DNA of 64,000 nt from Patescibacteria group bacterium (GCA_041660605.1 JBAZWB010000001.1:137295-201294); one strand, 5' to 3'; shown: positions 4,687-32,905, counted from the first letter of the stretch. The notes: generated from the letters alone by a model not told the origin. A program made the numbers and translations.

Positions 4687-4872
4687 ATATTTTTAAAAAT
4701 TTCCAATTTCCAAGCTCTAATTTCTAATCAATTTTTTAATATCTAATGCTAATAATGCCCAATTTAAACGTTTAATTATTGGATATTGGGGTTTGGTTAG
4801 GTATTAGAAATTTGTCATTAGAAATTCAAATAGGTTTTGGATTTCGTATTTTGAGATTAGAATTTAATTATT

Positions 4873-4945
4873 TGATGCCGGAGACCCCGTACAATTCGCT
4901 TCGCTCATGTACGGGGCAGGGAGCCCCGCTAGTCAGCGGGATCTC
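4873..4945 (+). repeat. Hairpin element: 12-nt tgatgccggaga (4873-4884, copy of 5208-5219) followed by CCCCGTACA-ATTCGCTTCGCTCA-TGTACGGGG hairpin and a second CCCGCT-agtc-AGCGGG hairpin
   Basis: Perfect 9-bp inverted repeat around a CGCTTCGCTC core; same core and flank logic at 30175-30213 and 63359-63435. Confidence 0.6.
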
Positions 4946-5207
4946 ATCATTTTATTAAGTTATTGTTTTCGAGAATCTCCGCAAAAGGCGGGATGCGTCA
5001 TCTGGTAATCAATTTTAGGGGTTATAATGGGCGAAAGAGGAGTCGCCACGCCCGCTTCGACGCAGCTGCGTCTGCAGCGAGTCGGGCGGGAACCTCCACG
5101 GGATTGCTCCCACACGGCCCTGCCACCGCCATACGGCGGGGTCCCACCTCCATTTGATTGAAAATATTGTAGCGGGAAACCGTGTGTATTGCTATTGTAA
5201 ATTTTAA

Positions 5208-5262
5208 TTGGTGCCGGAGAGAGGAATTGAACCTCCAAGCCCTTGCGGGCACACGGCCCTCC
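5208..5262 (-). other. tRNA-like 3' fragment (variable arm, T-arm, acceptor 3' strand, encoded CCA); no matching 5' half found
   Basis: Minus strand reads ...GCCCGCAAGGGCTTGGAGGTTCAATTCCTCTCTCCGGCACCA. T-arm and ACCA end are clear, but no 5' acceptor or D-arm could be folded in the 124 nt before tRNA-Leu. Confidence 0.35.
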
Positions 5263-5332
5263 GCCTTTGCCCTCATTATATTCGGGCTATGGCGGACAGG
5301 TGAACAGTGCGCTTCGTGCCTGCCTGTGCCTA

Positions 5333-5416
5333 TGCCGAGAAGAGGACTCGAACCTCCATGGGCTTGCGCCCGCTAGCTCCTGAAGCTAGTGCGTCTACCA
5401 AATTCCGCCATCTCGG
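5333..5416 (-). tRNA. tRNA-Leu (anticodon CAG), type II with long variable arm, CCA not encoded
   Basis: Manual fold: acceptor GCCGAGA/TCTCGGC, D-arm GCGG..CGC, anticodon stem CTAGC/GCTAG with loop TTCAGGA, variable arm CGGGCGCAAGCCC, T-arm GGAGG-TTCGAGT-CCTCT. Confidence 0.85.
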
Positions 5417-5487
5417 CTCAGACATAGGTAGGCAGGTTTGCTAACTTGTCCCGTCGAATGACGGGGTTTCACCACTCCGGCAGAAAA

Positions 5488-7320
5488 TTACTGCCAACCC
5501 AATTTAACTTTTATATACCTGTCCTCGATGCCGTTAAAGCGATCGGAGGGTATAGTTATAGGTATATCCTTAATACCTTTAATTTTTTTTGCTGCACCAT
5601 AATTATAATACGGGCTGTAGAGAAAGACTGCGGGAACATCTTCGGCGATAATGTTTTGGAAATCTATGTAGTCCTTCGCCCGATCATCCAAATTATCGGT
5701 TTTTCTGGCTTCTTCGAGTAATTTATCCGCGTCTTTATTATAATAGTTTGATAAATTCAATCCACCGGAAACGCTTTGGCTGGAGTGCCAGAATGGATAA
5801 GGGTCGGGATCGGCGCCTAATATTTCACCGTATAAAAAAGCCTCGTAGGCCCTGGGCTTGATGACTTCCTTATCAATGCGCAGGGGATTCATAATTTTCA
5901 GTTCAATGCCGACGCCGATATTTTCCCAGTTCTCACGCAGGATATCGGCAGTTTTCAGATATTCAGGCTGGTCAACGGTGGTCAGGGAAAATTTAAGTTC
6001 GTTCCCGTCTTTTTGCCTCAGACCGCCTCCTTCAGGCACTTTCCAGCCGGCGTCGTTGAGTATCTGTTCAGCCTTGGCTTTATCAAAATCGTATTTTTTT
6101 ATATCCGGGTTATAGCCTAGAAAACCCTCAAGTATCGGCCCGTTAATGATCTGGCCTTCGTTACTAAGCGCTTCCTGCAAGATCCGGTTTCTATCAGTGG
6201 CGTAGGCCAGCGCCTGCTTTATTTCTTTTACCTTCAGCAGAGGATTTTTTTGGTTAAAAAATATGGCGGTATATTGCGGCAGCCGGAGAGAATAATTTAC
6301 AATATCCTTGTTTTTCCCGAGTGAACCGCTGTAATCTTTTGGGATATAGCTGATGCCGTCAACTTTATTATTTTGCAGAGAGCTGAGCGCGGATTCGAAG
6401 TCAGGATAAAATTTGAAAGTAATTTTTTCGATATAAGGTTTCTGATTGTAATAATCAGGATTCAGAGTCAGTAAATATGATTTTATCGTTCCAGACTGGT
6501 CTTTTACCAGTTCACTGAATTTGTACGGCCCGGAACCGATCGGTTTGGTATTATATTCCGCCAGACGGAAGTTGCTGGCAGTGACATCGCTCCAGATATG
6601 CGCCGGCAAGATGCCGATCGTCAAGTTTGAAAGAAACGGAGAAAATGGTTCATCCAGGCCGAAAGAAACAGTATAGTCATCAACTCTATTTATCGTTACA
6701 CCCTGGAAACTGGCGTAATAAGGGCTGTTAAAATCCGCTTCTTTGATGGTTTCATAAGTATAAACCACGTCGTCGGCCATCAGCGGATTGCCGTTCTGCC
6801 ATTTGACGTCCTGACGGAGATGTATGGTGTAGGTTTTTTTATCTTCTGAAATTTCATAATTCTGGGCCAAATCAGGCAGAAGCTTGAGGTTTTTATCGTA
6901 GCGGAATAATCCCGAGTAAACCAGCCGGGCGATATCGCGATCAATGTCATTCTGGGCCAGAATAGGATTGATATATGATGGCTGGCCAATCAGCGCTTCA
7001 CTGTAGCTACCGCCTGCTTTTGGCAGGTAAATAACGTGGCGCTGGTAAAAGCGAACCACTAAAAATCCGAGACTGGCGATAATCAATAAAAGCAGTACGC
7101 GGATAACTACCGCCTCCTTTTTTGTCAGGTATTTGGGTATATATTGCAGCTGCTGCCAGTTTGGGAAACGCTGCTTAGCCATGGAAAAAACGAGTTTTTT
7201 GTCCAAGTCAGTCTGTTCGGAAACAATTTCCGGTGTTTTTACCTGGCTATTGTCTGACTTTTGTCTTTTCCGAAAGATGTTTTTAGCCTGCGAAAATATT
7301 TTTGATACGTTCAGTTTCAA
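5488..7320 (-). CDS. ABC transporter substrate-binding protein, family 5 (oligopeptide/dipeptide-type), N-terminal membrane anchor
   Basis: 610 aa, N-terminal TM segment, SBP_bac_5-like sequence pattern through the mature domain. Confidence 0.7.
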   Translation of the reverse strand: MKLNVSKIFSQAKNIFRKRQKSDNSQVKTPEIVSEQTDLDKKLVFSMAKQRFPNWQQLQYIPKYLTKKEAVVIRVLLLLIIASLGFLVVRFYQRHVIYLPKAGGSYSEALIGQPSYINPILAQNDIDRDIARLVYSGLFRYDKNLKLLPDLAQNYEISEDKKTYTIHLRQDVKWQNGNPLMADDVVYTYETIKEADFNSPYYASFQGVTINRVDDYTVSFGLDEPFSPFLSNLTIGILPAHIWSDVTASNFRLAEYNTKPIGSGPYKFSELVKDQSGTIKSYLLTLNPDYYNQKPYIEKITFKFYPDFESALSSLQNNKVDGISYIPKDYSGSLGKNKDIVNYSLRLPQYTAIFFNQKNPLLKVKEIKQALAYATDRNRILQEALSNEGQIINGPILEGFLGYNPDIKKYDFDKAKAEQILNDAGWKVPEGGGLRQKDGNELKFSLTTVDQPEYLKTADILRENWENIGVGIELKIMNPLRIDKEVIKPRAYEAFLYGEILGADPDPYPFWHSSQSVSGGLNLSNYYNKDADKLLEEARKTDNLDDRAKDYIDFQNIIAEDVPAVFLYSPYYNYGAAKKIKGIKDIPITIPSDRFNGIEDRYIKVKLGWQ

Positions 7321-7340
7321 TTTAAACAGTGATTAATAAT

Positions 7341-7601
7341 TTATTGACGGATCAAAATATTCGCTACGGCCACTCCAAAGAATAAAATACTTATCACAAT
7401 GGTGACCACGAAAAGAGATTTTTCAAAACCCCGCTTCGTCCGATAAACGTTTCCGTCACCCCCTAAGGCAGTGGAAAGACCGGCGCCCTGGTTTTGCAGT
7501 AAAATTACCGTCACCAGCAGACCGGCGAGTACAATCTGCGCAATATTTAGAATGTTTTGCATATAAAAAAATATAGCTCTAAGCTTAGTATAAGGTATCA
7601 A
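7341..7601 (-). CDS. secG: Preprotein translocase subunit SecG (true start possibly at 7556, MQNIL...)
   Basis: Small two-TM protein with LLQ.QGAGL...GG pattern typical of SecG. Confidence 0.7.
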   Translation of the reverse strand: MIPYTKLRAIFFYMQNILNIAQIVLAGLLVTVILLQNQGAGLSTALGGDGNVYRTKRGFEKSLFVVTIVISILFFGVAVANILIRQ

Positions 7602-7636
7602 ATTACAGGCCTTTTGTCAAGAAAGGCCTGAACTGG

Positions 7637-7774
7637 TTATTTCCCGGCTCTTTTTATTATAATTTTTTGCAGCTTTTTCACGCTGGCTCCGGAGACTTTC
7701 ATCCGGATTTTTTTCCGCCTGGATTTTTGCTGGTTTTTTCTCTCTATCTCTCTCTGCAATTTTTCGTAATCCAT
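7637..7774 (-). CDS. Small highly basic ORF (45 aa, MDYEKLQREIERKNQQKSRRKKIRMKVSGASVKKLQKIIIKRAGK) 2 nt downstream of the uvrC stop
   Basis: Translated by hand from the minus strand; missing from the ORF track because it is under 60 aa; function unknown. Confidence 0.25.
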   Translation of the reverse strand: MDYEKLQREIERKNQQKSRRKKIRMKVSGASVKKLQKIIIKRAGK

Positions 7775-7776
7775 TT

Positions 7777-9561
7777 TTATAAGTATTCCTTAATGATTTT
7801 TACCAGTTTTTTCCCGGCAATTTTTCCCAGTTCCACCACGGAGGCGCCGGCGATTCCCTGGGTTGAACTGAAATGGGCCAGAAGTTTTTTCTTGGTTTTC
7901 GGCCCCAGCCCGGGGATTTCATCAAGGATTGATTTTTTAATTTCTTTGCCATGTTCTTTGCGAAAAAAGGCAATAGCAAAACGATGCGCCTCATCCCGCA
8001 GCCGCTGGATCAGGAAAAGGGCCGGGGAGTCAGGAGGGAAATTTACCGGCATCTCCCGGTCAGGCAGATAGATGTTCTCATGTTTTTTTGCCAGAGCCAC
8101 TGTCGGTATTTGGCGCCCAATAGCTTTTATCACTGTATTAAGCTGGCCTCGGCCGCCATCCAGAATTACCAGATCGGGTCTTGGCCACGGCCCCCTCATC
8201 CCAACCTTCTCCCCCGCAGGGGGAGAAGGGGGCAGTTTAAGGTGACCAAAACGGCGTTTGAGCATTTCCGCCAGCATCGCCGTGTCATTGGCCCCTTTGA
8301 CGCTTTTTATCTTAAATTTGCGGTACCATTTTTTATCAGGGCGGCCGTCGGTAAAAACAATCATGGAGCCAACCGGATTCTGGCCCTGAATGTTAGAAAT
8401 ATCATAAGTTTCAATGCGCCTGGGAATATGGGGTAAAGACAATAATTTTTTAAATTGCTCCAGCGCGATTTTTGTTTGAGTCTTTTCTTTTTCCCAGGAT
8501 GCTTTTTGCTGTTCCAGATAGCCTACGGCATTCTCAACTCCCAGTTCAAGATATTTTTTCTTTGTTCCTTTTTGGGGAACGATTATTCTAACTCCGAAAG
8601 TATTTTCGATAATTTTTTGGTCAGCCAGCTTTAGAGGCAAAATAATTTCCCCGGGCAGGTCGGTGGTTTGGGGGTAGTATCTTTCTAGGAAGGCCTGAAT
8701 GATCTCCCCTTCAGTCTGGCTGGCAATATTTTTCAAAATGAAATTCTGCTTGTTCAGAAGTATTCCCTGCCTGATGATGAAAAGGTTGATGCAGGCCAGT
8801 TCACGATTTTGTGCCAGGCTGACGATATCCTGGTTCTCCCGTTTGGCTGAGACGACAATCTGTTTTTCCATCAGCCTTTTGATTGACTGTATCTGGTCGC
8901 GGCAGGTGGCGGCTTTTTCGTATTGCCGGTTATGCGAAGCACGGGCCATTTTTTTCCCCAGCTCCTCGGCAATCATCCGGTACTCGCCTTTGAGAAATTT
9001 AATAATATTATTAATGTTTAATCTGTACTCACGCGGGTCACTGGGGCCCAGCAGCTGCGGATACCTTTTAACCAGGAAGTTCAAATGATATTTAGACGCC
9101 GAACGGGAAAAATTACGATGCGGAAAAAGCTTGCGCAGCAGGCGCAAAGTCTGCCTAACCGAACCGGCTGAGACGTAAGGGCCGAAATATCTGGCTTTAT
9201 CCCAGCTGATTCTCCTGACCGTAAAGACGCGCGGGAATTCCTCATCCAGCGATATTTTAATATATAAAAAGTTCTTGTCATCCTTCAAATCAATATTAAA
9301 CGGCGGCTGGCGCTTTTTTATCAGATTTGACTCTAGGAGCAGGGCTTCTGACGGCGAGGTGGTAATAATAAATTCCAGTTTGGAAATTTTTTCCACCATC
9401 AATTGCTTTTGCGGCGTCAGCTGGCTGGTCTGCCGGAAATATGAAGAAATGCGGTCTTTTAATTTTGTCGCTTTGCCAATATAAAGTATGCTGTCATTTA
9501 CATCTTTGAAGATATAAACTCCGGGTTTTTTGGGTATTTTTTGCAGGCTGATTTTTTTCAT
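7777..9561 (-). CDS. uvrC: Excinuclease ABC subunit C (start moved to MKKISLQKIPKKPGVYIF)
   Basis: GIY-YIG N-terminal motif (GVYIFKD...ILYIGKA), UvrC central and HhH C-terminal regions. Confidence 0.9.
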   Translation of the reverse strand: MKKISLQKIPKKPGVYIFKDVNDSILYIGKATKLKDRISSYFRQTSQLTPQKQLMVEKISKLEFIITTSPSEALLLESNLIKKRQPPFNIDLKDDKNFLYIKISLDEEFPRVFTVRRISWDKARYFGPYVSAGSVRQTLRLLRKLFPHRNFSRSASKYHLNFLVKRYPQLLGPSDPREYRLNINNIIKFLKGEYRMIAEELGKKMARASHNRQYEKAATCRDQIQSIKRLMEKQIVVSAKRENQDIVSLAQNRELACINLFIIRQGILLNKQNFILKNIASQTEGEIIQAFLERYYPQTTDLPGEIILPLKLADQKIIENTFGVRIIVPQKGTKKKYLELGVENAVGYLEQQKASWEKEKTQTKIALEQFKKLLSLPHIPRRIETYDISNIQGQNPVGSMIVFTDGRPDKKWYRKFKIKSVKGANDTAMLAEMLKRRFGHLKLPPSPPAGEKVGMRGPWPRPDLVILDGGRGQLNTVIKAIGRQIPTVALAKKHENIYLPDREMPVNFPPDSPALFLIQRLRDEAHRFAIAFFRKEHGKEIKKSILDEIPGLGPKTKKKLLAHFSSTQGIAGASVVELGKIAGKKLVKIIKEYL

Positions 9562-25117: not shown

Positions 25118-25275
25118 ATTCAGTTTAAATTTTAAACCGGTTGCTATATGGCAGCCGGTTTTTCATTTAATCCTGATGGTTTTTAGTCGTGGTTTTGTTG
25201 CAATCAGCTGTGCCTGTTGTATTGACTAAAGGTTTTAAACGGGAGGCTAGCGGAGACATATTGGTTAAAAACCGC

Positions 25276-25645
25276 TTACGTTGCTAATCTTTAATCGAGA
25301 TTTCTCCACTCCTCTTCGGCTACGCTCAGAGTCGGTCGAAATGACAGACGTTTGTTCTGGTAAAACCCTTATGACAGGCACTTACGTTTGTCGCCTCGAC
25401 CGATCCCGTCATCCTTCGGTGAGTGGTAGGAGTCCCCGTTGGACACAACTAACGTTGCTAATCTTCAACCGAGATTTCTCCGCTCCTCTTCGGCTACGCT
25501 CAGAGTCGGTCGAAGTGACACACGCCGATGGATTATCAACACCGAGCTACAAACTCAACCAACGCCTGTCACCTCGACCGAGTCACGCGGAGCGTGATGA
25601 GTGGAGAGGTCTCTGTAAATGCCACCTCACTCATTCATACCACCC
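25276..25645. repeat. Array of structured modular repeats (two tandem units containing cgagatttctcc...tcggtcgaa[a/g]tgaca plus tgtcNcctcgaccga inverted modules) that abuts and overlaps the 3' end of the GIY-YIG gene
   Basis: Internal tandem copies at 25297-25346 and 25469-25520; homologous to 10478-10546, 26015-26300 and 29569-29925. Confidence 0.8.
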
Positions 25646-25924
25646 CTCGCTCAAATCATTCCAACAGGGATTCATATTATTAATTAACCATTCTTTTTTT
25701 CCCCGTCGCCACCGTTTTATTTGTTTTTCCCTTTGTATCGCCACAAAAATATCGTCATGCACTTCGTAATACACTAGCTTGTTAACATTATACTTATTAG
25801 TAAAACCAGGATTTACTTTAGTCTTATGTTGCCAAACCCGACTTTCAAGATTTGAAGTCACCCCGACATACAAAACATTCTTTCTTTTATTAGTCAAAAT
25901 ATAAACGTAATATTGCCTTGCCAT
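25631..25924 (-). CDS. Small GIY-YIG nuclease-domain protein (YhbQ/UPF0213-like, 97 aa)
   Basis: YYVYILTN...LYVGVT..L..R..QH motif. Confidence 0.8.
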   Translation of the reverse strand: MARQYYVYILTNKRKNVLYVGVTSNLESRVWQHKTKVNPGFTNKYNVNKLVYYEVHDDIFVAIQREKQIKRWRRGKKEWLINNMNPCWNDLSEGWYE

Positions 25925-26014
25925 AATAAAAATTCCTTCCGTTTGGGGAAGGCTATGCTGTTATGCTACTACTTTTTCGAATGTTGTCAAATACTACCAG
26001 CATTTTTTATTCAA

Positions 26015-26300
26015 GCCGAGATTTCTCCACTCCCACCGCTTGCGCGGCGGTCGGTCGAAATGACAGACGTTTGTTCAGGTAAAACCCTAATGACTGGCAT
26101 TCACGCTTGTCATGTCGACCCCCTCGACTACGCCCCTTCGATAAACTCAGAGGCTACGCTCGGGGCAGGCTTTACGGAGACATCTCTGTTAATTACCACC
26201 CACGTTATTCGCCCTAATCGAGATTTCTCGACGAAGTTTACCCTGAGCATAGCCGATGTGCTCGAAGTGACAAATATGGCGGATAAAAAAAGAAACGGTT
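26015..26300. repeat. Second locus of the modular repeat family, including an inverted copy of the ccccgagcgtagcc...ggggcgtagtcgaggg module and a terminal AACGGTTGC/GCAACCGTT hairpin
   Basis: Shares cgagatttctc, tcggtcgaaatgacagacgtttgtt, gtgacaaNNtggcggataaaaa with loci B and D; one module is the reverse complement of its copy in locus D. Confidence 0.8.
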
Positions 26301-26726
26301 GCTTTCTAGGGCAACCGTTCTGTAGGTGTAAAAATCCAATACTAAAGGAAGCTATTAATCTCGGCTAGAGACTAATAGACTCCCGGACTTGGTCGTCAAG
26401 TGAACCTAGAGGGGAAAAATCTTTTCCAGTCCAGTGCTCCCTTGGTAGGGATATGTATGCCATCCCATGCAACTTTTAGCCGGGCGGCACACACTAGGCA
26501 CACAAAGCTCCTGCAGAGGAGCAGACCAATGTCCGGGAAGGATCGATGCAGCAAATTAATGTACATAGATTTCCCTCCACGGTTATTCTTCAATTAGGAT
26601 AGCAGTTGCATTTTATTTGTCAATTTTTTAACGAATTATTACTGGCAATTACGCTTGACTTAAGGCCTGGACTTTGTTAGGATTTTTTAATTAGTTCTTT
26701 GATATCATAACAAATGGAGACAGAAA

Positions 26727-29045
26727 ATGACGCAAATTGTCGGTTTCGAGTTTGAGGAAGTAGTAGTAGTCGCGGAAAGCCCACACGATATTTTTTCTCC
26801 CCAGCTGCGCAAAGCCGGCATCAAATACAAAAGATGTTCGGAACGCGAGGCGCGGGAGTTAATACTCGGAGATTCTGCGCTTATCATTGTCGTGAATTTA
26901 GGCGCTGAAAAAGTAGGCGAGCGGTTAAGAGCTCTATTTCCCCGAGCGCAGGTAGTTGTCTGTACCGGCGGCGAGAAGGTTTTTGATCCGCGGGTAGTCG
27001 TAGTGCACGGGAAAGGCGAGCATGACCTGCACCGCTTTTCCGACTGGGGAGGCTTTATCAGGCTTATTGGCCAACGGTTAAAGCCGCTGCCCAGGATTTT
27101 CACGCCGGTTCCCGGAGGGCACGACCTGTTTACTTATCTTCAGCCGGAGGAAGATGACTATGCGTACTGTCCGCAAGGGCTCAGCGACGCTTCCGGCACT
27201 ATGCTGAATATGTCCATAGTTTATCTGCGCTGGTACCGGCAGTGGCTGGAGGATGTCAGCAAAATTTCTTTTGATTGCCACTTCAGTTTTTCCGGCAAGA
27301 AAAGAAAAGTCAGGCGCGTGACGGTGCTGGTGGATGAAGTGACATTTATTCATCTTGGGCTGCCGATTTTCCACGAGGAAGACCGGGTGACATTCTTTGA
27401 CTCTGGCGGCAACGAGCACCGGGCTATTGTTGAGCGCATCGGCGATGAAGAAATGAAACTGTATTTTCCGGAAGAGTTGGACCGTTTTGTCGCGGAAGAT
27501 CTGGTTTTTTTCCAGAGAGATGTGGACAACGGCCTGATTGAGGCGCAACTGCAGCTTTGCGAGAATTTTACCACGGGCATGATTGCCAATTATTCCCTTC
27601 CCTGGCTAGTGGCTACCGGCCAGTACAGAAATCAGCAGGCTGACCCGCAAGATAGAGTTTGCTTGCCTGAACGTGAATGGCGCAGGCTGTCCCAGGACCG
27701 TTCGCAGTGTTTGGCCCTGGTTGACATGGTTGGGACGGCTAATTTGGTTTTTACCAATGGACCAGCCGGTACGGGCAAGACTTTCGTTATCTCGCAAGCC
27801 ATACCCCAAAATATCAGTCGCAGGAAAGTCACGCTAGTGCTATCCCATTCCAACAGGGGACTGGATAATATGATAGCCGCCATTGCCAAGCGGTTTACTG
27901 ATCATCGTCTTATTTATCGCCTGGGCAATAGCCAGGATAGCGTGGCTCCAGAGGCACTGCCTTTTCACCGGAGCCAGCGCTTCCGCGGTCCTGACGATAG
28001 GCCGTATCCAGAGGCACGGCAGGCTATGGAGGAGACTCGTAACATTTTGGAGCAATTAGATTTTGGCGACGGCATTGTCATTGGGTGCACCTTGACCTCG
28101 TTCTGGCTGGATAAGACGATGCTAGCTTTGCAGAAGAGCGGGATCCGGTTCCAGGTCGCTTATGTGGACGAAGCTTCGCGCTGCTATTTCTTTGAGCTGC
28201 TGCCTATCCTGCGCGCGGTGGCGGAAAAAGTCATTTTTGTCCTTGATCCCGAACAGCTGGGCAATATCGGCTTGTCTCCCCAGGCTAAGGATCACTTGGT
28301 GCAAAAAGGTTTTGAACCCGGGCAAATTGACGAATTCTTGGCAGGCTGGCCGGCCAGTGTCATTAAGAAGCGCCTGCTTAATTCCAGGATGCTGACAGTC
28401 AACAGGCGTTCCTTGCCTGTGATTTGCCGGCTGGTTAGTGAGGTTTTTTACGACGGTGAGCTTGAATCCGGACGTTTTGATCCGAATAATTCCGGGCAGG
28501 TTATTTTCTACGATACGGCCGCCGCGCAGGATAAGGGCCAGGAACGGCATCACAAATCTTTCAAGAATAGGCGTGAGGCTAATATAGCCGTTAGCTATGT
28601 TGTTAAACGCCTGGCTGCCGGCACAGCGCCAGATCAGATTGGGATTATTACTCCTTACCGGGGACAGATCGGCCTGATCCGGGGCAAGCTACGGCAAGAA
28701 TTGCTTTTTAACGACAAGCTGAAAGCGGTTCGCCAGCGGTATAACATTAACGCTGAAACTATTGATGCCATAGCCACTGCCATGGTGGATACGGTGGATG
28801 CTTTCCAGGGATCAGAGCGGACAGAGATAATCCTAAGCTTCGTCCGCTCAAATGACGAAGGCGACGTGGGTTTCAACCGCTTCGTCAACCGTTTATTGGT
28901 GGCGTTCTCGCGAGCCCGCAACCGCCTGGTGATAATCGGGGATACGCAGACTTTCCTGGCTTCGGAATTTCCAGAAGTGGTCAGGATATTCAAGCAGGTA
29001 ATTGAGTACGTGAAAAAGTATGGTACATACGTGGAGGTAAAATAA
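26727..29045 (+). CDS. Superfamily-1 helicase, Upf1/DNA2-like (AAA_11/AAA_12-type), with an unrecognised N-terminal region of about 330 aa
   Basis: Walker A FTNGPAGTGKTF, Walker B-like VDEASRC, C-terminal VDAFQGSER...NRLLVAFSRARNRLVIIGD; GC-richer than surroundings. Confidence 0.75.
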   Translation: MTQIVGFEFEEVVVVAESPHDIFSPQLRKAGIKYKRCSEREARELILGDSALIIVVNLGAEKVGERLRALFPRAQVVVCTGGEKVFDPRVVVVHGKGEHDLHRFSDWGGFIRLIGQRLKPLPRIFTPVPGGHDLFTYLQPEEDDYAYCPQGLSDASGTMLNMSIVYLRWYRQWLEDVSKISFDCHFSFSGKKRKVRRVTVLVDEVTFIHLGLPIFHEEDRVTFFDSGGNEHRAIVERIGDEEMKLYFPEELDRFVAEDLVFFQRDVDNGLIEAQLQLCENFTTGMIANYSLPWLVATGQYRNQQADPQDRVCLPEREWRRLSQDRSQCLALVDMVGTANLVFTNGPAGTGKTFVISQAIPQNISRRKVTLVLSHSNRGLDNMIAAIAKRFTDHRLIYRLGNSQDSVAPEALPFHRSQRFRGPDDRPYPEARQAMEETRNILEQLDFGDGIVIGCTLTSFWLDKTMLALQKSGIRFQVAYVDEASRCYFFELLPILRAVAEKVIFVLDPEQLGNIGLSPQAKDHLVQKGFEPGQIDEFLAGWPASVIKKRLLNSRMLTVNRRSLPVICRLVSEVFYDGELESGRFDPNNSGQVIFYDTAAAQDKGQERHHKSFKNRREANIAVSYVVKRLAAGTAPDQIGIITPYRGQIGLIRGKLRQELLFNDKLKAVRQRYNINAETIDAIATAMVDTVDAFQGSERTEIILSFVRSNDEGDVGFNRFVNRLLVAFSRARNRLVIIGDTQTFLASEFPEVVRIFKQVIEYVKKYGTYVEVK

Positions 29046-29568
29046 GTAAAAAAATAGGGTGGCTGTGGCAAACAGTCACCCTTTAGTTTTTTGGTCAGGT
29101 CCAAGCTTTATTAAATGCCTTGCAAGTTGCATATAATATTTTTGCCTATACCCCTTCGAATGCCATCAGTGAGGTAAGGAAGCCAGTTAACGTAAGCGTT
29201 AACCTAGTAAAAGGACCGGACCCCTCTTCGAACTCCACCGTGGGTCTTCGCCGTAGTCAACTGCTCATCGCCGTCATGACATATATGATAAGAAGACCAT
29301 TGGCCGTGCAACCACCTACGAATTGCACTGACCAGCTGCCTGCTCCCAGAGAGATTTTCTCTCTTGAACAGGGGCGGAATTGAAGAGGAAATGAACCCTG
29401 CTGGGACTATCCCAAAAGCGAACCTTTGAGAAAGTAGCATTAGAGAACCTCCTCCCTATTCCAGAAATGTAACCGTCCGTACACTAGGCACTGCGACTGT
29501 TACGTGCATATCTTAGCAGAATAAATAATACTGTCAAGGGATTTTTAATGAATTTGAACTCACGCGAT

Positions 29569-29925
29569 TGTCTCCTCGACCGATCCCGTCATCCGTCAGG
29601 GGAGTGGCGGGAACCTCCGTTAAACATAACTAACTTTGTTAATCTCCAAGTCGAGATTTCTCCATTCGTCCTCGTTCCACTCGGGCTCAGTCGAAATGAC
29701 ATGCGTTTTTTGACGACAAACAACACTTGATAAAACCACCCACGTCTGTCATGTCGACCGAGTTACGCGTAGCGTGATGAGCGGAGACATCTCGGTTAAA
29801 CACCACCTCAGCCAGCCCTAACCGAGATTTCTCCATTCAATCTGCCCCGAGCGTAGCCTCTGAGTTTATCGAAGGGGCGTAGTCGAAGGGCTCGAGGTGA
29901 CAAGCGTGGCGGATAAAAAGAGGCG
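29569..29925. repeat. Third large locus of the modular repeat family
   Basis: Contains tgtcNcctcgaccgatcccgtcatcc, aactaacNttgNtaatct..cgagatttctcc, tcagtcgaaatgaca and ggtgacaagcgtggcggataaaaag modules. Confidence 0.8.
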
Positions 29926-30145
29926 GCAATCGTATAAGTTCCATTGGCATGAACCCCCCTTGTTTTATAATCAAAGGGTGGTATGATATACTGATTTTAG
30001 GCATTTTTTAACAAAAAGATGCAGAGGTGAGTTTAACTACGTTTTTTAAGAAGCTGCATCTAAAGTGCAATCAAAGCGGAGAGGTCGCCCCGCCTCCGTA
30101 AAAACTCCGGCGGGGCAGGCATAGTGTAATATATTTCATCAGAAT

Positions 30146-30213
30146 GGAGGGATCGCATAGTTGGTCTAGTGCGCACGCCCCGAAGAATACTCGCTTCGCT
30201 CGTATCTACGGGG
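30146..30213 (+). pseudogene. Partial duplicate of the tRNA-Ser 5' end (29 nt, 30146-30174, 2 mismatches) fused to a CCCCG...CGCTTCGCTC...CGGGG hairpin element (30175-30213)
   Basis: ggagggatcgcatagttggtctagtgcgc versus ggaagggtcgcatagttggtctagtgcgc of the intact tRNA 90 nt downstream. Confidence 0.7.
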
Positions 30214-30267
30214 TAAACTTGGAAAGTAGTTTTTAAAAAAGCAGATATTATTTATTGGGCTCGGAGC

Positions 30268-30356
30268 GGAAGGGTCGCATAGTTGGTCTAGTGCGCTTGC
30301 TTGGAAAGCAAGTAAAGGCCAAAAGCCTTTCGCGAGTTCGAATCTCGCCCCTTCCG
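30268..30356 (+). tRNA. tRNA-Ser (anticodon GGA), type II, CCA not encoded
   Basis: Manual fold: acceptor GGAAGGG/CCCTTCC, D-arm GCAT..GTGC, anticodon stem CTTGC/GCAAG with loop TTGGAAA, variable arm AAAGGC-caaaa-GCCTTT, T-arm GCGAG-TTCGAAT-CTCGC. Confidence 0.8.
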
Positions 30357-30384
30357 CTCCGGATCTTATTAGATAGTATAGTTG

Positions 30385-30480
30385 GTTTTAAGTTCGCCAC
30401 GTCATCCTGTCATCCGACAGGACATATCCGACGTGGCGCCCCGAGTTTATCTTGGGGCGAATCTTTACCCCGCTGAATAG
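30385..30480. repeat. Nested hairpins (GCCACGTC..CCTGTC-atccga-GACAGG..GACGTGGC; CCCCGCT-gaat-AGCGGGG) and a terminal 17-nt segment that is the inverted repeat of 30137-30153
   Basis: tccctccgttctgatga (30464-30480) is the reverse complement of tcatcagaatggaggga (30137-30153) with 1 mismatch. Confidence 0.55.
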
Positions 30481-30889
30481 CGGGGCCTTTCCCTCCGTTC
30501 TGATGAAGTAAACCGCAGGTTTGAATCTTACAACAATAATTTGATTTATGCGAAATTAAATCATTTTAATCATTATAGCCGCAATGATTTTAGAAGCTTT
30601 AGTGTTAACCGTGATTATATTTTCAGACACCTCTTACGTGATCCAAATTATTGAATCAAAAGAAGAATACAAAGAACTCTCAATTCCAAACAGTGGTTAT
30701 CTTTAAGAATAGCCGGCAAGTTTTAGTTAAAAAAATATTTTTTTCTAATTTTGACACTAATCTTATAAAAAACTATAATTAAAGCACGTAATCCTTAATA
30801 AAATAGCGGATCAGAGCAAAACCGATATTGCATTATAATATGACATGAAAAGCGCTGAAAAAAAGTTACAAAATATTTAATCAACAAAT

Positions 30890-32905
30890 ATGAATGAGAA
30901 TTTTAAGGCGATAGAGGACTGGATAGCGCAAGCCCGCACTGCCGGTCTTTCTGACAATCAAATTTCAGATCAGCTTCGCAACAGCGGCTGGCAGGAAAGC
31001 CAAATTGCACAATTTATCAAGAATGAAGTTTCCGGAGTTTCTCACCCGGGCACACCCGCCCGAGATTACACTTTCCCAGTGAAGGGTATGAAAAATGTCG
31101 GCACTTCTGCGACGGAACTAAGGCAAAAGCCCTGGCTTTTACGGCACACCGCGTTATTATTCGGGGTGCTTGGGGGCATTCTCATCATTGGCGGTACTGC
31201 CTTTGCCGCGGTACAAGGATATATTCAAATTCCATTTATTTCTAATAGCAATAAACTGCTGACCCAGGCAATAAAACGCCTGGAAACCGTGGAAAGCGGC
31301 GAATTCGGCATTGTTTTCAGCATTGCTACTGAACCGCGCACTCCAGATGCAGTTCCATGGCCAAAAAATTCGAATATAGATGAGGGTATGGATGATTTTT
31401 CCCTAGATTTTACTGATATGATCCCGGCCGATGTCGCGCTTGAAGGCGTCATCACCACATTTATGAATACAGATTCCGCTGATTTGCAGAAACTCCGCGG
31501 CATTCTTACAGCAAAGGGCTCTTACCGCAGCTCAGGTACGACAATGAGCATGGACTTAGAGGCAAGGATCGTTGATGGACTGGGCTACCTTCTCGTGCGG
31601 CAATTTCCCGCCCTTCCTTTTGTGGATACCAGTCCATTCGTTGGAAAGTGGATATCACTGAATACAAAGGGGGATTCAACTGCGGATGATTTTCTTAGCG
31701 CCTATACGCCTGATAATGTAAATGTGTCAGAGGAATCAAAAAAGGTAAAAATTGAGGCAGCAGCTATTTTCCGGCTAGCGCTCTCCACGAAGGCTCTCTC
31801 TGCCGCAAACAGCGGTAGCGAGAAGCTGGACGGGCACGCTACGAAAAAAATTACCCTGACGATTAACCCTGAAAAAATTCCTGCGTTCCTGGCGGCTTAC
31901 CGTGATGATGCTGACAAGCGAGGCGTCTCCACGGCGTATGTCGATGAAACCCTGCAAGAATTAAAAGATCCGAAATACCTCGAACTTATCCGGGCAATGG
32001 CGAGCAACCTGCGCATTACAGTCTGGATCGACAGTGCGGATCATACTCCCCGAAAAGCCGAGTACTCGCAAATTATAGTACCAGATGAGACTGCCACGAA
32101 CTTCAAGGATAAACAGATCCATGCGACATTTGGATTCACGCTTGATCATGTCAATGAACAGCCTAACGTCGAAGCGCCAAAGGACGCTGTTACGCTTGAA
32201 ACAGTTCTTGAGCCGGTGTTAGCTGGACCTCGCGCTAAGTCCCGGAACGCACAGCGCAAATCCGATATTGGACAATTGAGGACCGCGCTTATTCTGTATT
32301 ATGATGATAATACCCACTACCCAAAAGATATAAATGAGGTGGCCGAAAAACCAAATCAGACTATCAGCCAGATGCCTGTCCCGCCATTGCCAAATGAGAT
32401 ATATGCGTACACTCCCACAGAAGACCTTTCGGGTTTTACTATCTGTGCAACTCTCGAGGATGTAGGGGAGGGCGCAGGGAAATACTGTTATGACCAGGCC
32501 GGAATTTTAACAGAAACTCCCGGAAACTCATTGGCTGGCCCGACGGATTTATTTTCTGAGCCAGGGCAAAGAAATGAAAAACGATTAGCAGACCTAAAAA
32601 AACTTCGGGAAGGGGTTTTGCTTTTCTATGATTATGAAAATCAAATGCCAAAATCATATACGGATCTGCTGAGGCATACCCCGCCTGTTATTGAGGGCGT
32701 CGCGCCGCCAGTACAAGGTGAAATGTATAAATACACCCTGTTAGATGGCGTAAAACGGGACTTCAGCGTATGCGCGGATTTTGAAAACTCAGTAGAATAT
32801 GAAGCTGGTCAGTATTGCTTTGAAACCGCAAAACCGAATGCCCTTATCCAAAAAGGCGTAAATGGCGGCATTGACATTGAAATTGTGGGTGATTATAACA
32901 GCTAG
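30890..32905 (+). CDS. Membrane-anchored protein (671 aa) with two tandem pseudopilin/type-IV-pilin head-like motifs in the C-terminal half
   Basis: TM segment around aa 88-110; SRNAQRKSDIGQLRTALILYYDDNTHYP and QRNEKRLADLKKLREGVLLFYDYENQMP resemble the region just after the N-terminal helix of Parcubacteria-type pilins (recalled consensus ARDARR.ADLKQIQTALELYYDDNGSYP). Confidence 0.6.
   Translation: MNENFKAIEDWIAQARTAGLSDNQISDQLRNSGWQESQIAQFIKNEVSGVSHPGTPARDYTFPVKGMKNVGTSATELRQKPWLLRHTALLFGVLGGILIIGGTAFAAVQGYIQIPFISNSNKLLTQAIKRLETVESGEFGIVFSIATEPRTPDAVPWPKNSNIDEGMDDFSLDFTDMIPADVALEGVITTFMNTDSADLQKLRGILTAKGSYRSSGTTMSMDLEARIVDGLGYLLVRQFPALPFVDTSPFVGKWISLNTKGDSTADDFLSAYTPDNVNVSEESKKVKIEAAAIFRLALSTKALSAANSGSEKLDGHATKKITLTINPEKIPAFLAAYRDDADKRGVSTAYVDETLQELKDPKYLELIRAMASNLRITVWIDSADHTPRKAEYSQIIVPDETATNFKDKQIHATFGFTLDHVNEQPNVEAPKDAVTLETVLEPVLAGPRAKSRNAQRKSDIGQLRTALILYYDDNTHYPKDINEVAEKPNQTISQMPVPPLPNEIYAYTPTEDLSGFTICATLEDVGEGAGKYCYDQAGILTETPGNSLAGPTDLFSEPGQRNEKRLADLKKLREGVLLFYDYENQMPKSYTDLLRHTPPVIEGVAPPVQGEMYKYTLLDGVKRDFSVCADFENSVEYEAGQYCFETAKPNALIQKGVNGGIDIEIVGDYNS

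What the first reader, a model, noticed from the sequence alone, without database searches (positions are those of the whole stretch)
30137..30480. tRNA-Ser preceded by a 29-nt copy of its own 5' end fused to a CGCTTCGCTC hairpin element, the whole bracketed by 17-nt inverted repeats
30146-30174 duplicates the first 29 nt of tRNA-Ser (30268-30296) with 2 mismatches and then runs straight into the hairpin ACGCCCCG...TCGCTTCGCTCG...CGGGGT. The segment 30137-30153 is repeated in inverted orientation at 30464-30480 after further nested hairpins. This looks like the footprint of a small hairpin element that captured or duplicated the 5' part of its target.
Basis: seen in the sequence. Interest (0 to 1): 0.7.

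Follow-up and report, generated by a model that had tools for sequence, protein, structure and literature searches.

The report
tRNA gene nested inside its predecessor
The working serine tRNA gene of this candidate-phyla-radiation bacterium sits inside the hairpin-riddled wreck of an older copy of the same gene; the same arrangement recurs in related bacteria, which points to a process, not found in the papers searched, that keeps replacing their tRNA genes.

Summary
The partner of the inverted repeat lies at 30490-30510, outside the reported span, and the repeat is 21 nt.

This repeat is the acceptor stem plus a 14-bp leader/trailer extension of an outer tRNA-Ser(GGA) gene. The outer gene (30146-30497) encloses the intact gene (30268-30356). 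It carries GC-rich hairpins at three sites: the anticodon stem, the T loop and just before the 3' acceptor strand. Removing the hairpins and the inner module gives a sequence that ARAGORN calls tRNA-Ser(GGA). An older 5' fragment lies at 30078-30126.

The window's only other tRNA, Leu(CAG), is nested in the same way. At least ten loci from other Patescibacteria show same-isoacceptor nests. Eight remnants have hairpins exactly between TTC and GAA of the T loop. Nineteen small GIY-YIG nuclease ORFs sit directly upstream of a tRNA gene, usually after a hairpin-bearing 5' fragment of that tRNA.

Best reading: recurrent invasion by tRNA-carrying, inverted-repeat-flanked modules. The resident gene dies and the incoming copy takes over. 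The nuclease link and the insertion mechanism are inferred. I found no published description.

The parts
29944..29971 (+). Promoter-like site TTGGCA-16-TATAAT upstream of the whole stack. It is probably the promoter of the long precursor that contains the intact tRNA.
   Evidence: 11 of 12 consensus positions. No promoter-like site lies between the outer 5' part and the inner gene. The downstream stretch from about 29981 (TATGATATACTGA...) aligns with locus L133; the hexamers themselves lie outside that alignment.
30078..30126 (+). Oldest layer: a tRNA-Ser 5' fragment, GGAGAGGTCGC [GC hairpin about 30087-30116] (G)CATAGTG, covering tRNA positions 1 to about 18.
   Evidence: Read from sequence. 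Hairpin CCCCG..CGGGG at 30088-30115. The same fragment plus hairpin is present in L133 and L189.
30132..30145 (+). Leader of the outer gene. It is the 5' arm of a 14-bp helix that continues the outer acceptor stem.
   Evidence: (inverted repeat I1).
30146..30177 (+). Outer tRNA-Ser(GGA) gene, 5' part: acceptor 5' strand GGAGGGA, D arm, and the first 3 nt of the anticodon stem.
30178..30216 (+). Hairpin A (loop TCGCTTCGCTC), inserted in the 5' strand of the outer anticodon stem.
   Evidence: The boundaries 30176/30216 or 30177/30217 are the ones that give ARAGORN Ser(GGA) calls.
30217..30230 (+). Outer gene: the rest of the anticodon arm, AC TTGGAAA GTAGT. The loop is identical to that of the inner gene and the stem pairs at 4 of 5 positions.
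30231..30267 (+). Leader of the inner module. Its last 6 nt, CGGAGC, pair with the trailer.
   Evidence: (I3).
30268..30356 (+). Intact inner tRNA-Ser(GGA), with no encoded CCA.
30357..30387 (+). Trailer of the inner module (GCTCCG...). Together with the leader it occupies the variable-arm position of the outer gene.
30388..30395 (+). Outer gene: T stem 5' strand TTAAG plus TTC of the T loop.
30396..30458 (+). Hairpins B (30396-30437) and C (30438-30458), inserted exactly between TTC and GAAT of the outer T loop.
   Evidence: Seven other remnants have an insertion at the same site.
30459..30467 (+). Outer gene: GAAT of the T loop plus the T stem 3' strand CTTTA.
30468..30489 (+). Hairpin D (CCCCGCTGAATAGCGGGG) plus CCTT, inserted between the T stem and the 3' acceptor strand.
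   Evidence: Related copies lie at 4923-4940 and in L189.
30490..30510 (+). Outer gene: acceptor 3' strand TCCCTCC, discriminator G, and a 13-nt trailer. This is the 3' arm of the 21-bp helix.
30515..30531 (+). Possible decayed T arm (GCAGGTTTGAATCTTAC) belonging to the oldest layer.
   Evidence: Read from sequence only. Weak.
4872..5481 (-). Second nest. The outer Leu-like gene runs from 5' GCCGGAGTGGTGAAA (5481-5467) to its variable arm, T arm and CTCCGGC-A-CCA (5250-5209). It encloses a hairpin (5466-5450) and the intact tRNA-Leu(CAG) (5417-5333) in its D loop. A 19-nt hairpin sits in its anticodon loop (5287-5269). A further Leu-like 3' fragment has a 45-nt hairpin between TTC and GACT of its T loop (5097-5028). 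An acceptor remnant TCTCCGGCA (4884-4876) follows D-like and A-like hairpins.

Best explanation
Positions 30078-30531 hold three generations of the tRNA-Ser(GGA) gene stacked inside one another. Only the innermost (30268-30356) is a working gene.

The middle generation was once a normal gene with an extended acceptor helix. A self-contained module (leader, tRNA-Ser(GGA), trailer, with leader and trailer pairing to prolong the acceptor stem) was inserted at its variable-arm position. The incoming copy supplied the essential function. The resident gene was then free to decay and to collect GC-rich hairpin insertions.

The whole stack is probably transcribed from one upstream promoter. The inner tRNA would be cut out by the ordinary end-processing enzymes and given its CCA afterwards.

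The process is recurrent and lineage-wide in Parcubacteria-type Patescibacteria. In many relatives it is associated with an ~80-aa GIY-YIG nuclease ORF placed between a hairpin-bearing 5' fragment and the intact gene. I therefore infer that nuclease-driven breakage and repair (homing-like) spreads these cassettes, and that the window shows an ORF-less product.

Shown: the anatomy, the recurrence, the GIY-YIG association and turnover between relatives. Inferred: the order of events, mobility as the cause, the role of the nuclease, and transcription and processing.
For: (1) Anatomy. Deleting hairpin A, the inner module, hairpins B+C and hairpin D leaves a sequence that ARAGORN calls tRNA-Ser(GGA) at its default threshold (634 of 11,484 boundary combinations). 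Acceptor stem 7/7, D arm identical to the inner gene, loop TTGGAAA, T loop TTCGAAT.

(2) Second case. The window's only other tRNA, Leu(CAG), is nested inside a Leu-like gene.

(3) Other genomes. Same-isoacceptor nests occur in L030, L133, L166, L183, L184, L186, L197, L208, L243 and L191. The outer genes range from fully intact when spliced (L030; apparently L184, by eye) to badly decayed (L166, L197, L243, L190). That range fits repeated events followed by decay.

(4) Turnover. L184 and L191 have flanks 82-83% identical and identical inner tRNAs. Yet the inner gene sits at position 34/35 of the outer gene in one and in the D loop in the other, with unrelated leader/trailer stems.

(5) T-loop site. 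Hairpins lie exactly between TTC and GAA of the T loop in 8 remnants. In L183 and L208 the hairpin at that site carries the inner tRNA at its tip.

(6) Nuclease. 19 of 24 GIY-YIG ORFs in the fetched loci end between -11 and +130 nt of a same-strand tRNA: Ser(GGA), Asn, Val and Met. 14 of the 18 examined are preceded by a 5' fragment of that tRNA carrying a GC double hairpin. Pfam GIY-YIG E = 3.6e-16 and 5.9e-10.

(7) Extended stems. 13 of 108 intact Ser(GGA) genes have 5 or more consecutive leader/trailer pairs, against about 0.8 expected. On 17 selected sequences 92% of cells pair, against about 50% in slid controls, and 18 of 21 pairs change on both sides.

(8) Transcription. One strong promoter-like site lies upstream of the stack and none lies inside it.

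(9) Artefact excluded. The 3' part appears in an independent assembly (L002).
Against: There is no nuclease, integrase or transposase gene at this locus. The nearest GIY-YIG ORF (25631-25924) is 4.2 kb away and not next to a tRNA.

The ~80-aa GIY-YIG proteins have no DNA-binding domain, so site-specific homing is unproven.

The intact inner genes often share the anticodon-arm sequence of the outer gene (L030, L240). How they would escape cleavage is unexplained.

The outer 21-bp helix is perfectly paired although the rest of the outer gene has decayed. The outer acceptor stems of the window and L133 differ by two compensated pairs. Both facts could mean selection on the outer helix rather than neutral wreckage.

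The outer T stem (TTAAG/CTTTA, 4/5) is AT-rich and quite unlike that of relatives. I chose the deletion boundaries by eye before the ARAGORN test.

The loci were collected by tRNA-Ser patterns, so frequencies are biased.
Confidence: 0.6

Rival explanations
1. Functional composite precursor. The outer pieces are kept by selection because their long-range helix (acceptor stem plus 14 bp) and the hairpins form a processing scaffold for the inner tRNA. An example would be a double-strand-specific RNase site, like the leader-trailer stems of rRNA operons.
For: The 21-bp outer helix has 19 Watson-Crick and 2 G.U pairs and no mismatch, although the interior has decayed. The two acceptor pairs that differ between the window and L133 are compensated. 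Extended stems around intact genes covary across lineages. A single upstream promoter implies the remnants are co-transcribed.
Against: Most intact Ser(GGA) genes in the same clade (95 of 108) have no extended stem. Outer parts are lost or decayed to very different degrees in relatives (L190, L162, L166). L133 keeps only the 7-bp acceptor pairing. The origin of the nest would still need an insertion event.
Confidence: 0.17
2. Fossil of a classical integrative element. [quoted passage not shown] Genome reduction later deleted everything except the now essential tRNA.
For: The logic of disrupting the host tRNA and carrying a replacement is established for mycobacteriophages (PMC10865867). tRNA fragments left by element integration are common (PMC9897764). 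A repeat-rich zone with a GIY-YIG ORF and an SF1 helicase lies just upstream (25264-29925).
Against: No integrase or phage gene was noticed in or beside any of the nests read, though these were not all screened formally. The inserts are only 110-430 nt. Their ends are flush palindromes that pair right up to the junctions (L208, L183, L030 family). Independent deletions would not leave that. Insertion positions vary among four different loops.
Confidence: 0.12
3. Purely local rearrangement. Replication slippage or template switching at the palindromic tRNA locus duplicated parts of the gene in place, with no mobile element or nuclease involved.
For: In GIY-YIG loci the 5' fragments are often identical to the 5' part of the adjacent intact gene (L240 36/36, L204 22/23). 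tRNA genes with extended inverted repeats are fold-back prone.
Against: In nests the inner and outer genes differ strongly in acceptor stem, variable arm and T stem (window, L030, L184). The leader of the L030-type insert is conserved across species with different tRNAs. The tight, oriented association with a nuclease ORF is not explained.
Confidence: 0.08
4. The outer gene is a working tRNA with several introns, group I or archaeal-type, one of which happens to hold another tRNA.
For: Group I introns at 35/36 are frequent in Patescibacteria tRNA genes (PMC13011429). The outer gene of L030 is intact when the insert is removed, and that of L184 appears so by eye.
Against: No group I intron or any other Rfam family appears in the window at E up to 10, nor in 13 related loci at gathering score. 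ARAGORN intron mode is negative. Four separate excisions would be needed. The restored gene has imperfect stems and no variable arm. Most outer genes in relatives are decayed.
Confidence: 0.03

Closest known systems
tRNA-dependent lysogeny of actinobacteriophages (Guerrero-Bustamante and Hatfull 2024, PMC10865867)
   Same: [quoted passage not shown]
   Different: There the element is a whole prophage with a tyrosine integrase and an att core. Here the insert is 110-430 nt with no recombinase. It is flanked by inverted repeats that prolong the acceptor stem, sits in loops of the target gene, and occurs in layers.
SegB-type free-standing GIY-YIG homing endonucleases in phage tRNA clusters (PMC2330249; PMC13096335)
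   Same: A GIY-YIG nuclease gene sits next to tRNA genes. In T-even phages it cleaves tRNA-gene DNA, drives inheritance of the region and can amplify segments that contain tRNA genes.
   Different: SegB is about 220 aa with a DNA-binding part and lies between intact phage tRNA genes. The ORFs here are about 80 aa (catalytic domain only) and chromosomal in Patescibacteria. They are preceded by a hairpin-bearing fragment of the very tRNA that follows. Their activity is untested.
tRNA gene fragments left by integration of genetic elements (van der Gulik et al. 2023, PMC9897764)
   Same: Partial, non-functional tRNA copies lie next to intact genes as footprints of mobile DNA.
   Different: My understanding is that the usual footprint is a 3' fragment at the far end of a large element. 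Here 5' and 3' parts bracket the intact gene within a few hundred bases, and GC hairpins are inserted in the fragments.
Group I introns at position 35/36 of Patescibacteria tRNA genes (Nakagawa et al. 2026, PMC13011429)
   Same: Same phylum and the same hotspot. Several double hairpins and modules here lie at 34/35 or 35/36 of the anticodon loop.
   Different: Those are self-splicing ribozymes of about 200 nt or more that Rfam RF00028 detects and that leave a single functional gene. No intron model matches here, and a complete second tRNA gene is present.
Archaeal split and multi-intron tRNA genes (Nanoarchaeum, Thermoproteales; from my own knowledge)
   Same: tRNA genes are interrupted at several non-canonical loop positions. 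Leader/trailer helices abut the break.
   Different: Those need the archaeal splicing endonuclease and yield one mature tRNA. This is a bacterium, the interrupted copy is decayed, and the insert itself is the functional tRNA.
Small palindromic repeat elements that invade genes (REP/BIME, Rickettsia palindromic elements; from my own knowledge)
   Same: Short GC-rich hairpins are repeated in a genome and inserted into structured RNA genes.
   Different: Here they are concentrated in tRNA-gene remnants at defined loop positions. There are few copies per 64 kb, and no associated RAYT or TnpA gene was seen.

Membership tests
Canonical bacterial tRNA gene (inner copy 30268-30356) | Cloverleaf recognised by tRNA models above the curated threshold | tested here: met
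   ARAGORN Ser(GGA). Rfam RF00005 57.2 bits against a gathering score of 29.
Intron-containing tRNA gene (outer copy) | One excision restores a canonical tRNA, detectable in intron-aware mode | tested here: not met
   ARAGORN -i up to 400 nt finds nothing. 2,190 single-deletion variants gave 0 hits. Four deletions are needed.
Group I intron | Match to the group I covariance model (conserved catalytic core) | tested here: not met
   No RF00028 match in 29700-30900 at E up to 10 or in 13 related loci at gathering score.
Archaeal-type split or BHB-intron tRNA | Bulge-helix-bulge motif at each junction and a splicing endonuclease in the genome | not tested
   The organism is a bacterium (Patescibacteria). 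I did not score BHB motifs or search for EndA.
Integrase-mediated att duplication / tRNA-dependent lysogeny | Tyrosine or serine recombinase and element genes between the tRNA fragments | tested here: not met
   Only 37 + 31 nt plus the tRNA lie between the outer halves. No ORF with a Pfam hit lies in 29100-30890. Flanking genes are a helicase and a 671-aa protein with no Pfam match.
Free-standing GIY-YIG homing-endonuclease cassette (SegB-like) | GIY-YIG ORF adjacent to the target tRNA gene | tested here: not met
   Not met in the window: the nearest GIY-YIG ORF, 25631-25924, is 4.2 kb away. Met in 19 related loci, which is why I infer a link.
Free-standing GIY-YIG homing-endonuclease cassette (SegB-like) | Site-specific cleavage of the cassette-free allele and biased inheritance | not testable with these tools
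   Needs enzyme assays or population data.
REP / MITE-like palindromic repeat family | Many dispersed copies with conserved sequence in one genome | tested here: inconclusive
   Two copies each of the A-type and D-type hairpins in 64 kb, all in tRNA nests. The loop motif TCGCTTCGCTC recurs in hairpins of other loci. The whole genome is not available.
IS200/IS605-derived hairpin elements (PATE) | Y1 transposase (TnpA) in the genome and insertion 3' of a fixed short target | not tested
   No TnpA appeared among the 15 larger ORFs scanned, but the window is only 64 kb. The fixed TTC|GAA site in T loops is compatible with this family but not diagnostic.

The most novel reading that the evidence does not exclude
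Parcubacteria-type Patescibacteria harbour a class of mobile cassette that does not seem to have been described. It is a tRNA gene embedded in a long inverted-repeat hairpin, with or without a minimal GIY-YIG nuclease. It homes into the loops (D, anticodon, variable, T) of the resident gene for the same isoacceptor, kills it and replaces it, so that the host becomes dependent on the invader. Successive invasions leave Russian-doll stacks such as 30078-30531.
Probability: 0.35. Interest if true: 0.9.

Novelty: new variant of a known kind. Interest (0 to 1): 0.75.

Why it matters
tRNA genes are usually regarded as the most static genes of a reduced genome. Here they look like a site of continual selfish replacement. 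Three consequences follow if the reading is right.

(1) Annotation. Hairpin-bearing and nested tRNA copies, and the assembly breaks they cause, would need attention when tRNA sets of candidate-phyla-radiation genomes are annotated.

(2) Nuclease function. The abundant, unexplained ~80-aa GIY-YIG genes of these bacteria would gain a testable role.

(3) Mobile-element logic. It would add a very small 'replace what you destroy' element to the known addiction strategies of mobile DNA.

It also yields two testable RNA-biology questions. One is how tRNAs with 12-22-bp extended acceptor helices and no encoded CCA are matured. The other is why hairpins land exactly between C56 and R57 of the T loop.

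Tried and rejected
- **Outer gene as a tRNA with one intron.** ARAGORN intron mode and relaxed thresholds gave only a spurious overlapping Arg call at -ps80. Single-deletion splicing gave 0 hits for Ser and inconsistent His(GTG) artefacts for Leu.
- **tmRNA.** The ARAGORN tmRNA search was negative.
- **Known RNA families.** The only sub-threshold Rfam hit over the hairpins is anti-hemB, 27.6 bits against a gathering score of 49.5. It is a generic three-hairpin match.
- **Synteny route.** Homologues of the downstream 671-aa ORF (36-55% identity) have PspC-like genes upstream, not a tRNA, so they gave no orthologous locus.
- **Genome-collection scan with the D-arm 22-mer.** It did still yield L030, L068 and L072.
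- **Nuclease gene inside or beside the window's nests.** None was found.
- **Empty-site search.** A BLAST of the flanks of nine nests gave only the informative pairs L184/L191 and window/L133.
- **Assembly artefact.** Rejected, because independent assemblies share the 3' part (L002) and more than 10 unrelated assemblies show the same architecture.

Full report
**Observation**

The window holds two tRNA genes: tRNA-Leu(CAG) at 5333-5417 (-) and tRNA-Ser(GGA) at 30268-30357 (+). Upstream of tRNA-Ser, 30146-30174 repeats its first 29 nt with two mismatches, and the similarity extends 7 nt into the leader. The copy runs into a hairpin, CCCCG...TCGCTTCGCTC...CGGGG, at 30178-30213.

The reported inverted repeat exists, but its second arm is misplaced. 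The partner of 30137-30153 is 30489-30505, not 30464-30480. The full repeat is 21 nt, 30132-30152 / 30490-30510. None of 60 shuffles produced either repeat. The region folds far better than shuffled sequence (z = -11.7).

The 22-nt D-arm core shared by the two copies is conserved in tRNA-Ser genes of many phyla. Its identity therefore says 'tRNA-Ser', not 'recent duplication'.

**What the inverted repeat is**

Its inner 7 bp are GGAGGGA / TCCCTCC, followed by a discriminator G. That is a tRNA acceptor stem. The outer 14 bp pair leader with trailer. The intact gene has the same design with other bases (CGGAGC / GCTCCG). The 29-nt 'copy' and the distal arm are therefore the two ends of a second, outer tRNA-Ser gene that encloses the intact one.

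It is not an ordinary intron-containing gene. ARAGORN with introns up to 400 nt finds nothing. No single deletion restores a tRNA. Rfam finds no intron or other family here, even at E = 10.

**Anatomy of the outer gene**

Reading the sequence shows four interruptions:

| Interruption | Coordinates | Position in the outer gene |
|---|---|---|
| Hairpin A | 30178-30216 | 5' strand of the anticodon stem |
| Inner gene with 37-nt leader and 31-nt trailer | 30231-30387 | in place of the variable arm |
| Hairpins B and C | 30396-30458 | between TTC and GAAT of the T loop |
| Hairpin D plus CCTT | 30468-30489 | between the T stem and the acceptor 3' strand |

With these removed, ARAGORN at default settings calls tRNA-Ser(GGA). 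The acceptor stem pairs 7/7 and the D arm is unchanged. The anticodon stem ACGAC/GTAGT pairs 4/5 with loop TTGGAAA. The T stem TTAAG/CTTTA pairs 4/5 with loop TTCGAAT. This held in 634 of 11,484 boundary combinations. I chose the T-loop and D boundaries by eye, which is a caveat.

A still older piece lies upstream: GGAGAGGTCGC, then a GC hairpin, then (G)CATAGTG (30078-30126). This piece, with its hairpin, is shared with loci L133 and L189.

A strong promoter-like site (TTGGCA-16-TATAAT, 29944-29971) precedes the whole stack, and none lies inside it. The intact tRNA is therefore probably made from a long precursor that contains the remnants. That step is inferred.

**The second tRNA of the window is nested too**

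On the minus strand, GCCGGAGTGGTGAAA (5481-5467) begins a Leu-like gene. Its D stem closes at 5305-5299. Its variable arm, T arm and CTCCGGC-A-CCA follow at 5250-5209.

A hairpin and the intact tRNA-Leu(CAG) sit in its D loop, the latter on a long leader/trailer stem. A 19-nt hairpin sits in its anticodon loop. After both are removed, ARAGORN calls a class II tRNA, Leu-type, with the anticodon depending on the boundary chosen.

Downstream there is another Leu-like 3' fragment with a 45-nt hairpin between TTC and GACT of its T loop (5097-5028). Beyond it lies an acceptor remnant preceded by D-like and A-like hairpins. The flanking genes are housekeeping (RNase J, a solute-binding protein, UvrC, UvrA), with no recombinase.

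**Organism and relatives**

The downstream 671-aa protein is annotated in a Patescibacteria MAG. Two pattern scans supplied about 240 loci with tRNA-Ser genes. Same-isoacceptor nests occur in at least ten of them.

- **L030, L184, L197, L243, L166 and L162.** These share a homologous insert (TTCCCGATTTG..., a hairpin, then CAATCCC...AAAGC, the tRNA, then GCTTT...GGGAGA) at position 34/35 of the anticodon loop. L190 keeps only decayed traces of the same leader and trailer, with no outer gene left.
- **L183 and L208.** The inner gene sits at the tip of a 13-bp hairpin inserted in the T loop.
- **L186, L133 and L191.** These are further variants.

Outer genes range from perfect when spliced (L030; apparently L184, by eye) to badly decayed.

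L184 and L191 are close relatives, with flanks 82-83% identical and inner tRNAs 100% identical. Yet the inner gene sits at 34/35 in one and in the D loop in the other, with unrelated stems. This is the best evidence here for independent insertions.

Hairpins lie exactly between TTC and GAA of the T loop in eight remnants: two in the window, plus L068, L072, L166, L186, L197 and L243.

**The nuclease link**

In L030 and L072 a small ORF between a truncated 5' fragment and the intact gene is a GIY-YIG domain (Pfam E = 3.6e-16 and 5.9e-10). A tblastn search with five such proteins found 24 ORFs in the fetched loci. Nineteen end between -11 and +130 nt of a tRNA on the same strand: sixteen Ser(GGA), plus Asn, Val and Met.

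In 14 of the 18 examined, the ORF is preceded by a 5' fragment of that same tRNA. The fragment carries a GC double hairpin 8-30 nt before the start codon. The hairpin family CCACCGCC....GGCGGGG / TCCGCC....GGCGGA recurs across species at different tRNA positions.

No Rfam family, group I introns included, matches these loci. The window's own GIY-YIG ORF (25631-25924) is 4.2 kb away and not beside a tRNA, so the Ser and Leu nests here are ORF-less.

**Extended acceptor helices**

Among 108 intact Ser(GGA) genes, 13 have five or more consecutive leader/trailer pairs starting at -1:73, against about 0.8 expected. Five have ten or more. Ten of the 13 lack an encoded CCA.

On 17 such sequences, 92% of cells pair against about 50% in slid controls, and 18 of 21 pairs change on both sides. 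That set was chosen for pairing, so the result measures diversity of the stems, not their discovery. In nests these helices reach the insertion junctions. In effect they are the inverted termini of the inserted module.

**Interpretation**

The descriptive part is well supported. The feature is a stack of gene generations, not a hairpin element that captured a tRNA end.

For the cause, I favour recurrent invasion by tRNA-carrying, inverted-repeat-flanked modules. Small GIY-YIG nucleases are the likely driver, followed by decay of the displaced gene and loss of the ORF (confidence about 0.6).

Weak points:
- No nuclease gene lies at this locus.
- The nuclease has no DNA-binding domain.
- Nothing explains how the intact copy would be immune to cleavage.
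- The insertion chemistry is unknown.

The perfect 21-bp outer helix, and two compensated acceptor pairs between the window and L133, leave room for a rival in which the outer helix is kept as a processing scaffold. The other rivals are a fossil integrase-type element, local duplication, and a multi-intron tRNA. Each fits fewer observations.

**Comparison with the literature**

| Known system | Relation to this feature |
|---|---|
| tRNA-dependent lysogeny (PMC10865867) | Closest functional analogue: a phage destroys a host tRNA gene and supplies its own. |
| SegB in T-even tRNA clusters (PMC2330249; PMC13096335) | Closest nuclease analogue. |
| tRNA fragments from element integration (PMC9897764) | A known footprint, but not nested and without hairpin insertions. 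|
| Group I introns at 35/36 in Patescibacteria (PMC13011429) | Same phylum and hotspot. That paper does not mention fragments, hairpins, nesting or tRNA-Ser. |

Six full-text searches found no description of tRNA genes nested in their own isoacceptor gene or of GIY-YIG-tRNA cassettes in these bacteria. I therefore rate the feature as a new variant of a known kind. There is a substantial chance that it represents a new class of element.

Noticed in passing
window 4872-5481 (-): tRNA-Leu(CAG) is nested in the D loop of an older Leu-like gene that still has an encoded CCA. Further Leu-like 3' fragments and hairpins follow downstream. Both tRNAs in this 64-kb window are therefore nested.
   Followed up: yes
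window 25264-26300 and 29560-29925: A family of roughly 170-nt dispersed repeats (motifs CCGAGATTTCTCC and TCGGTCGAAATGACAGACG). It includes a 90-nt inverted repeat (26102-26191 / 29819-29908, 88%) that brackets the SF1 helicase ORF 26727-29045. The zone ends just upstream of the tRNA-Ser stack.
   Followed up: partly
window 25631-25924 (-): A 97-aa GIY-YIG ORF, 35% identical to the tRNA-associated one of L030 and with a weak NCBIfam match to group I intron endonuclease. It sits between copies of the dispersed repeat and is not adjacent to a tRNA.
   Followed up: partly
window 33379-53412 (+): A giant ORF of 6,677 aa with higher G+C (about 53%) than its surroundings. Only a faint PelX_Ig hit is on record.
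   Followed up: no
window 30191-30201 and 4896-4906; L138, L196, L214, L159: The 11-mer TCGCTTCGCTC recurs as the apical part of hairpins whose stems differ. There are 6 further hits in about 1.6 Mb of fetched loci, where about 0.8 is expected. One lies right after a tRNA-Ser gene in L138.
   Followed up: partly
L199 (reverse strand), about 6950-7840 in the shown orientation: A GIY-YIG ORF abuts an intact tRNA-Ser(GGA). Three tandem units of about 235 nt follow. Each is a full-length Ser(GGA)-like gene with the double hairpin CCACCGCC..GGCGGGG TTCCGCC..GGCGGAA at position 35/36 and a degenerate 5' acceptor strand.
   Followed up: partly
L184 906-1187 versus L191 2620-2830: Related species with identical functional tRNA-Ser(GGA). 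The gene is inserted at different positions of the same outer gene and has unrelated leader/trailer helices.
   Followed up: partly
L124 16766-16842 (-): In another Patescibacteria contig from the same sample, tRNA-Ile(GAT) lies downstream of the 16S rRNA 3' end. It has an 11-bp leader/trailer helix that includes its encoded CCA (GCCCCACTGGT / ACCAGTGGGGC). Extended acceptor helices are therefore not limited to tRNA-Ser.
   Followed up: partly
L002 1-606 (Logan SRR6484324): This independent assembly of the same organism breaks inside the D arm of the intact tRNA-Ser. That is the 22-nt repeat shared with the outer copy, so such nests can fragment short-read assemblies.
   Followed up: partly
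L196 5400-5820 (+): The same architecture occurs for tRNA-Asn(GTT): an 11-nt 5' fragment, a double hairpin, a GIY-YIG ORF, then the intact gene.
   Followed up: partly
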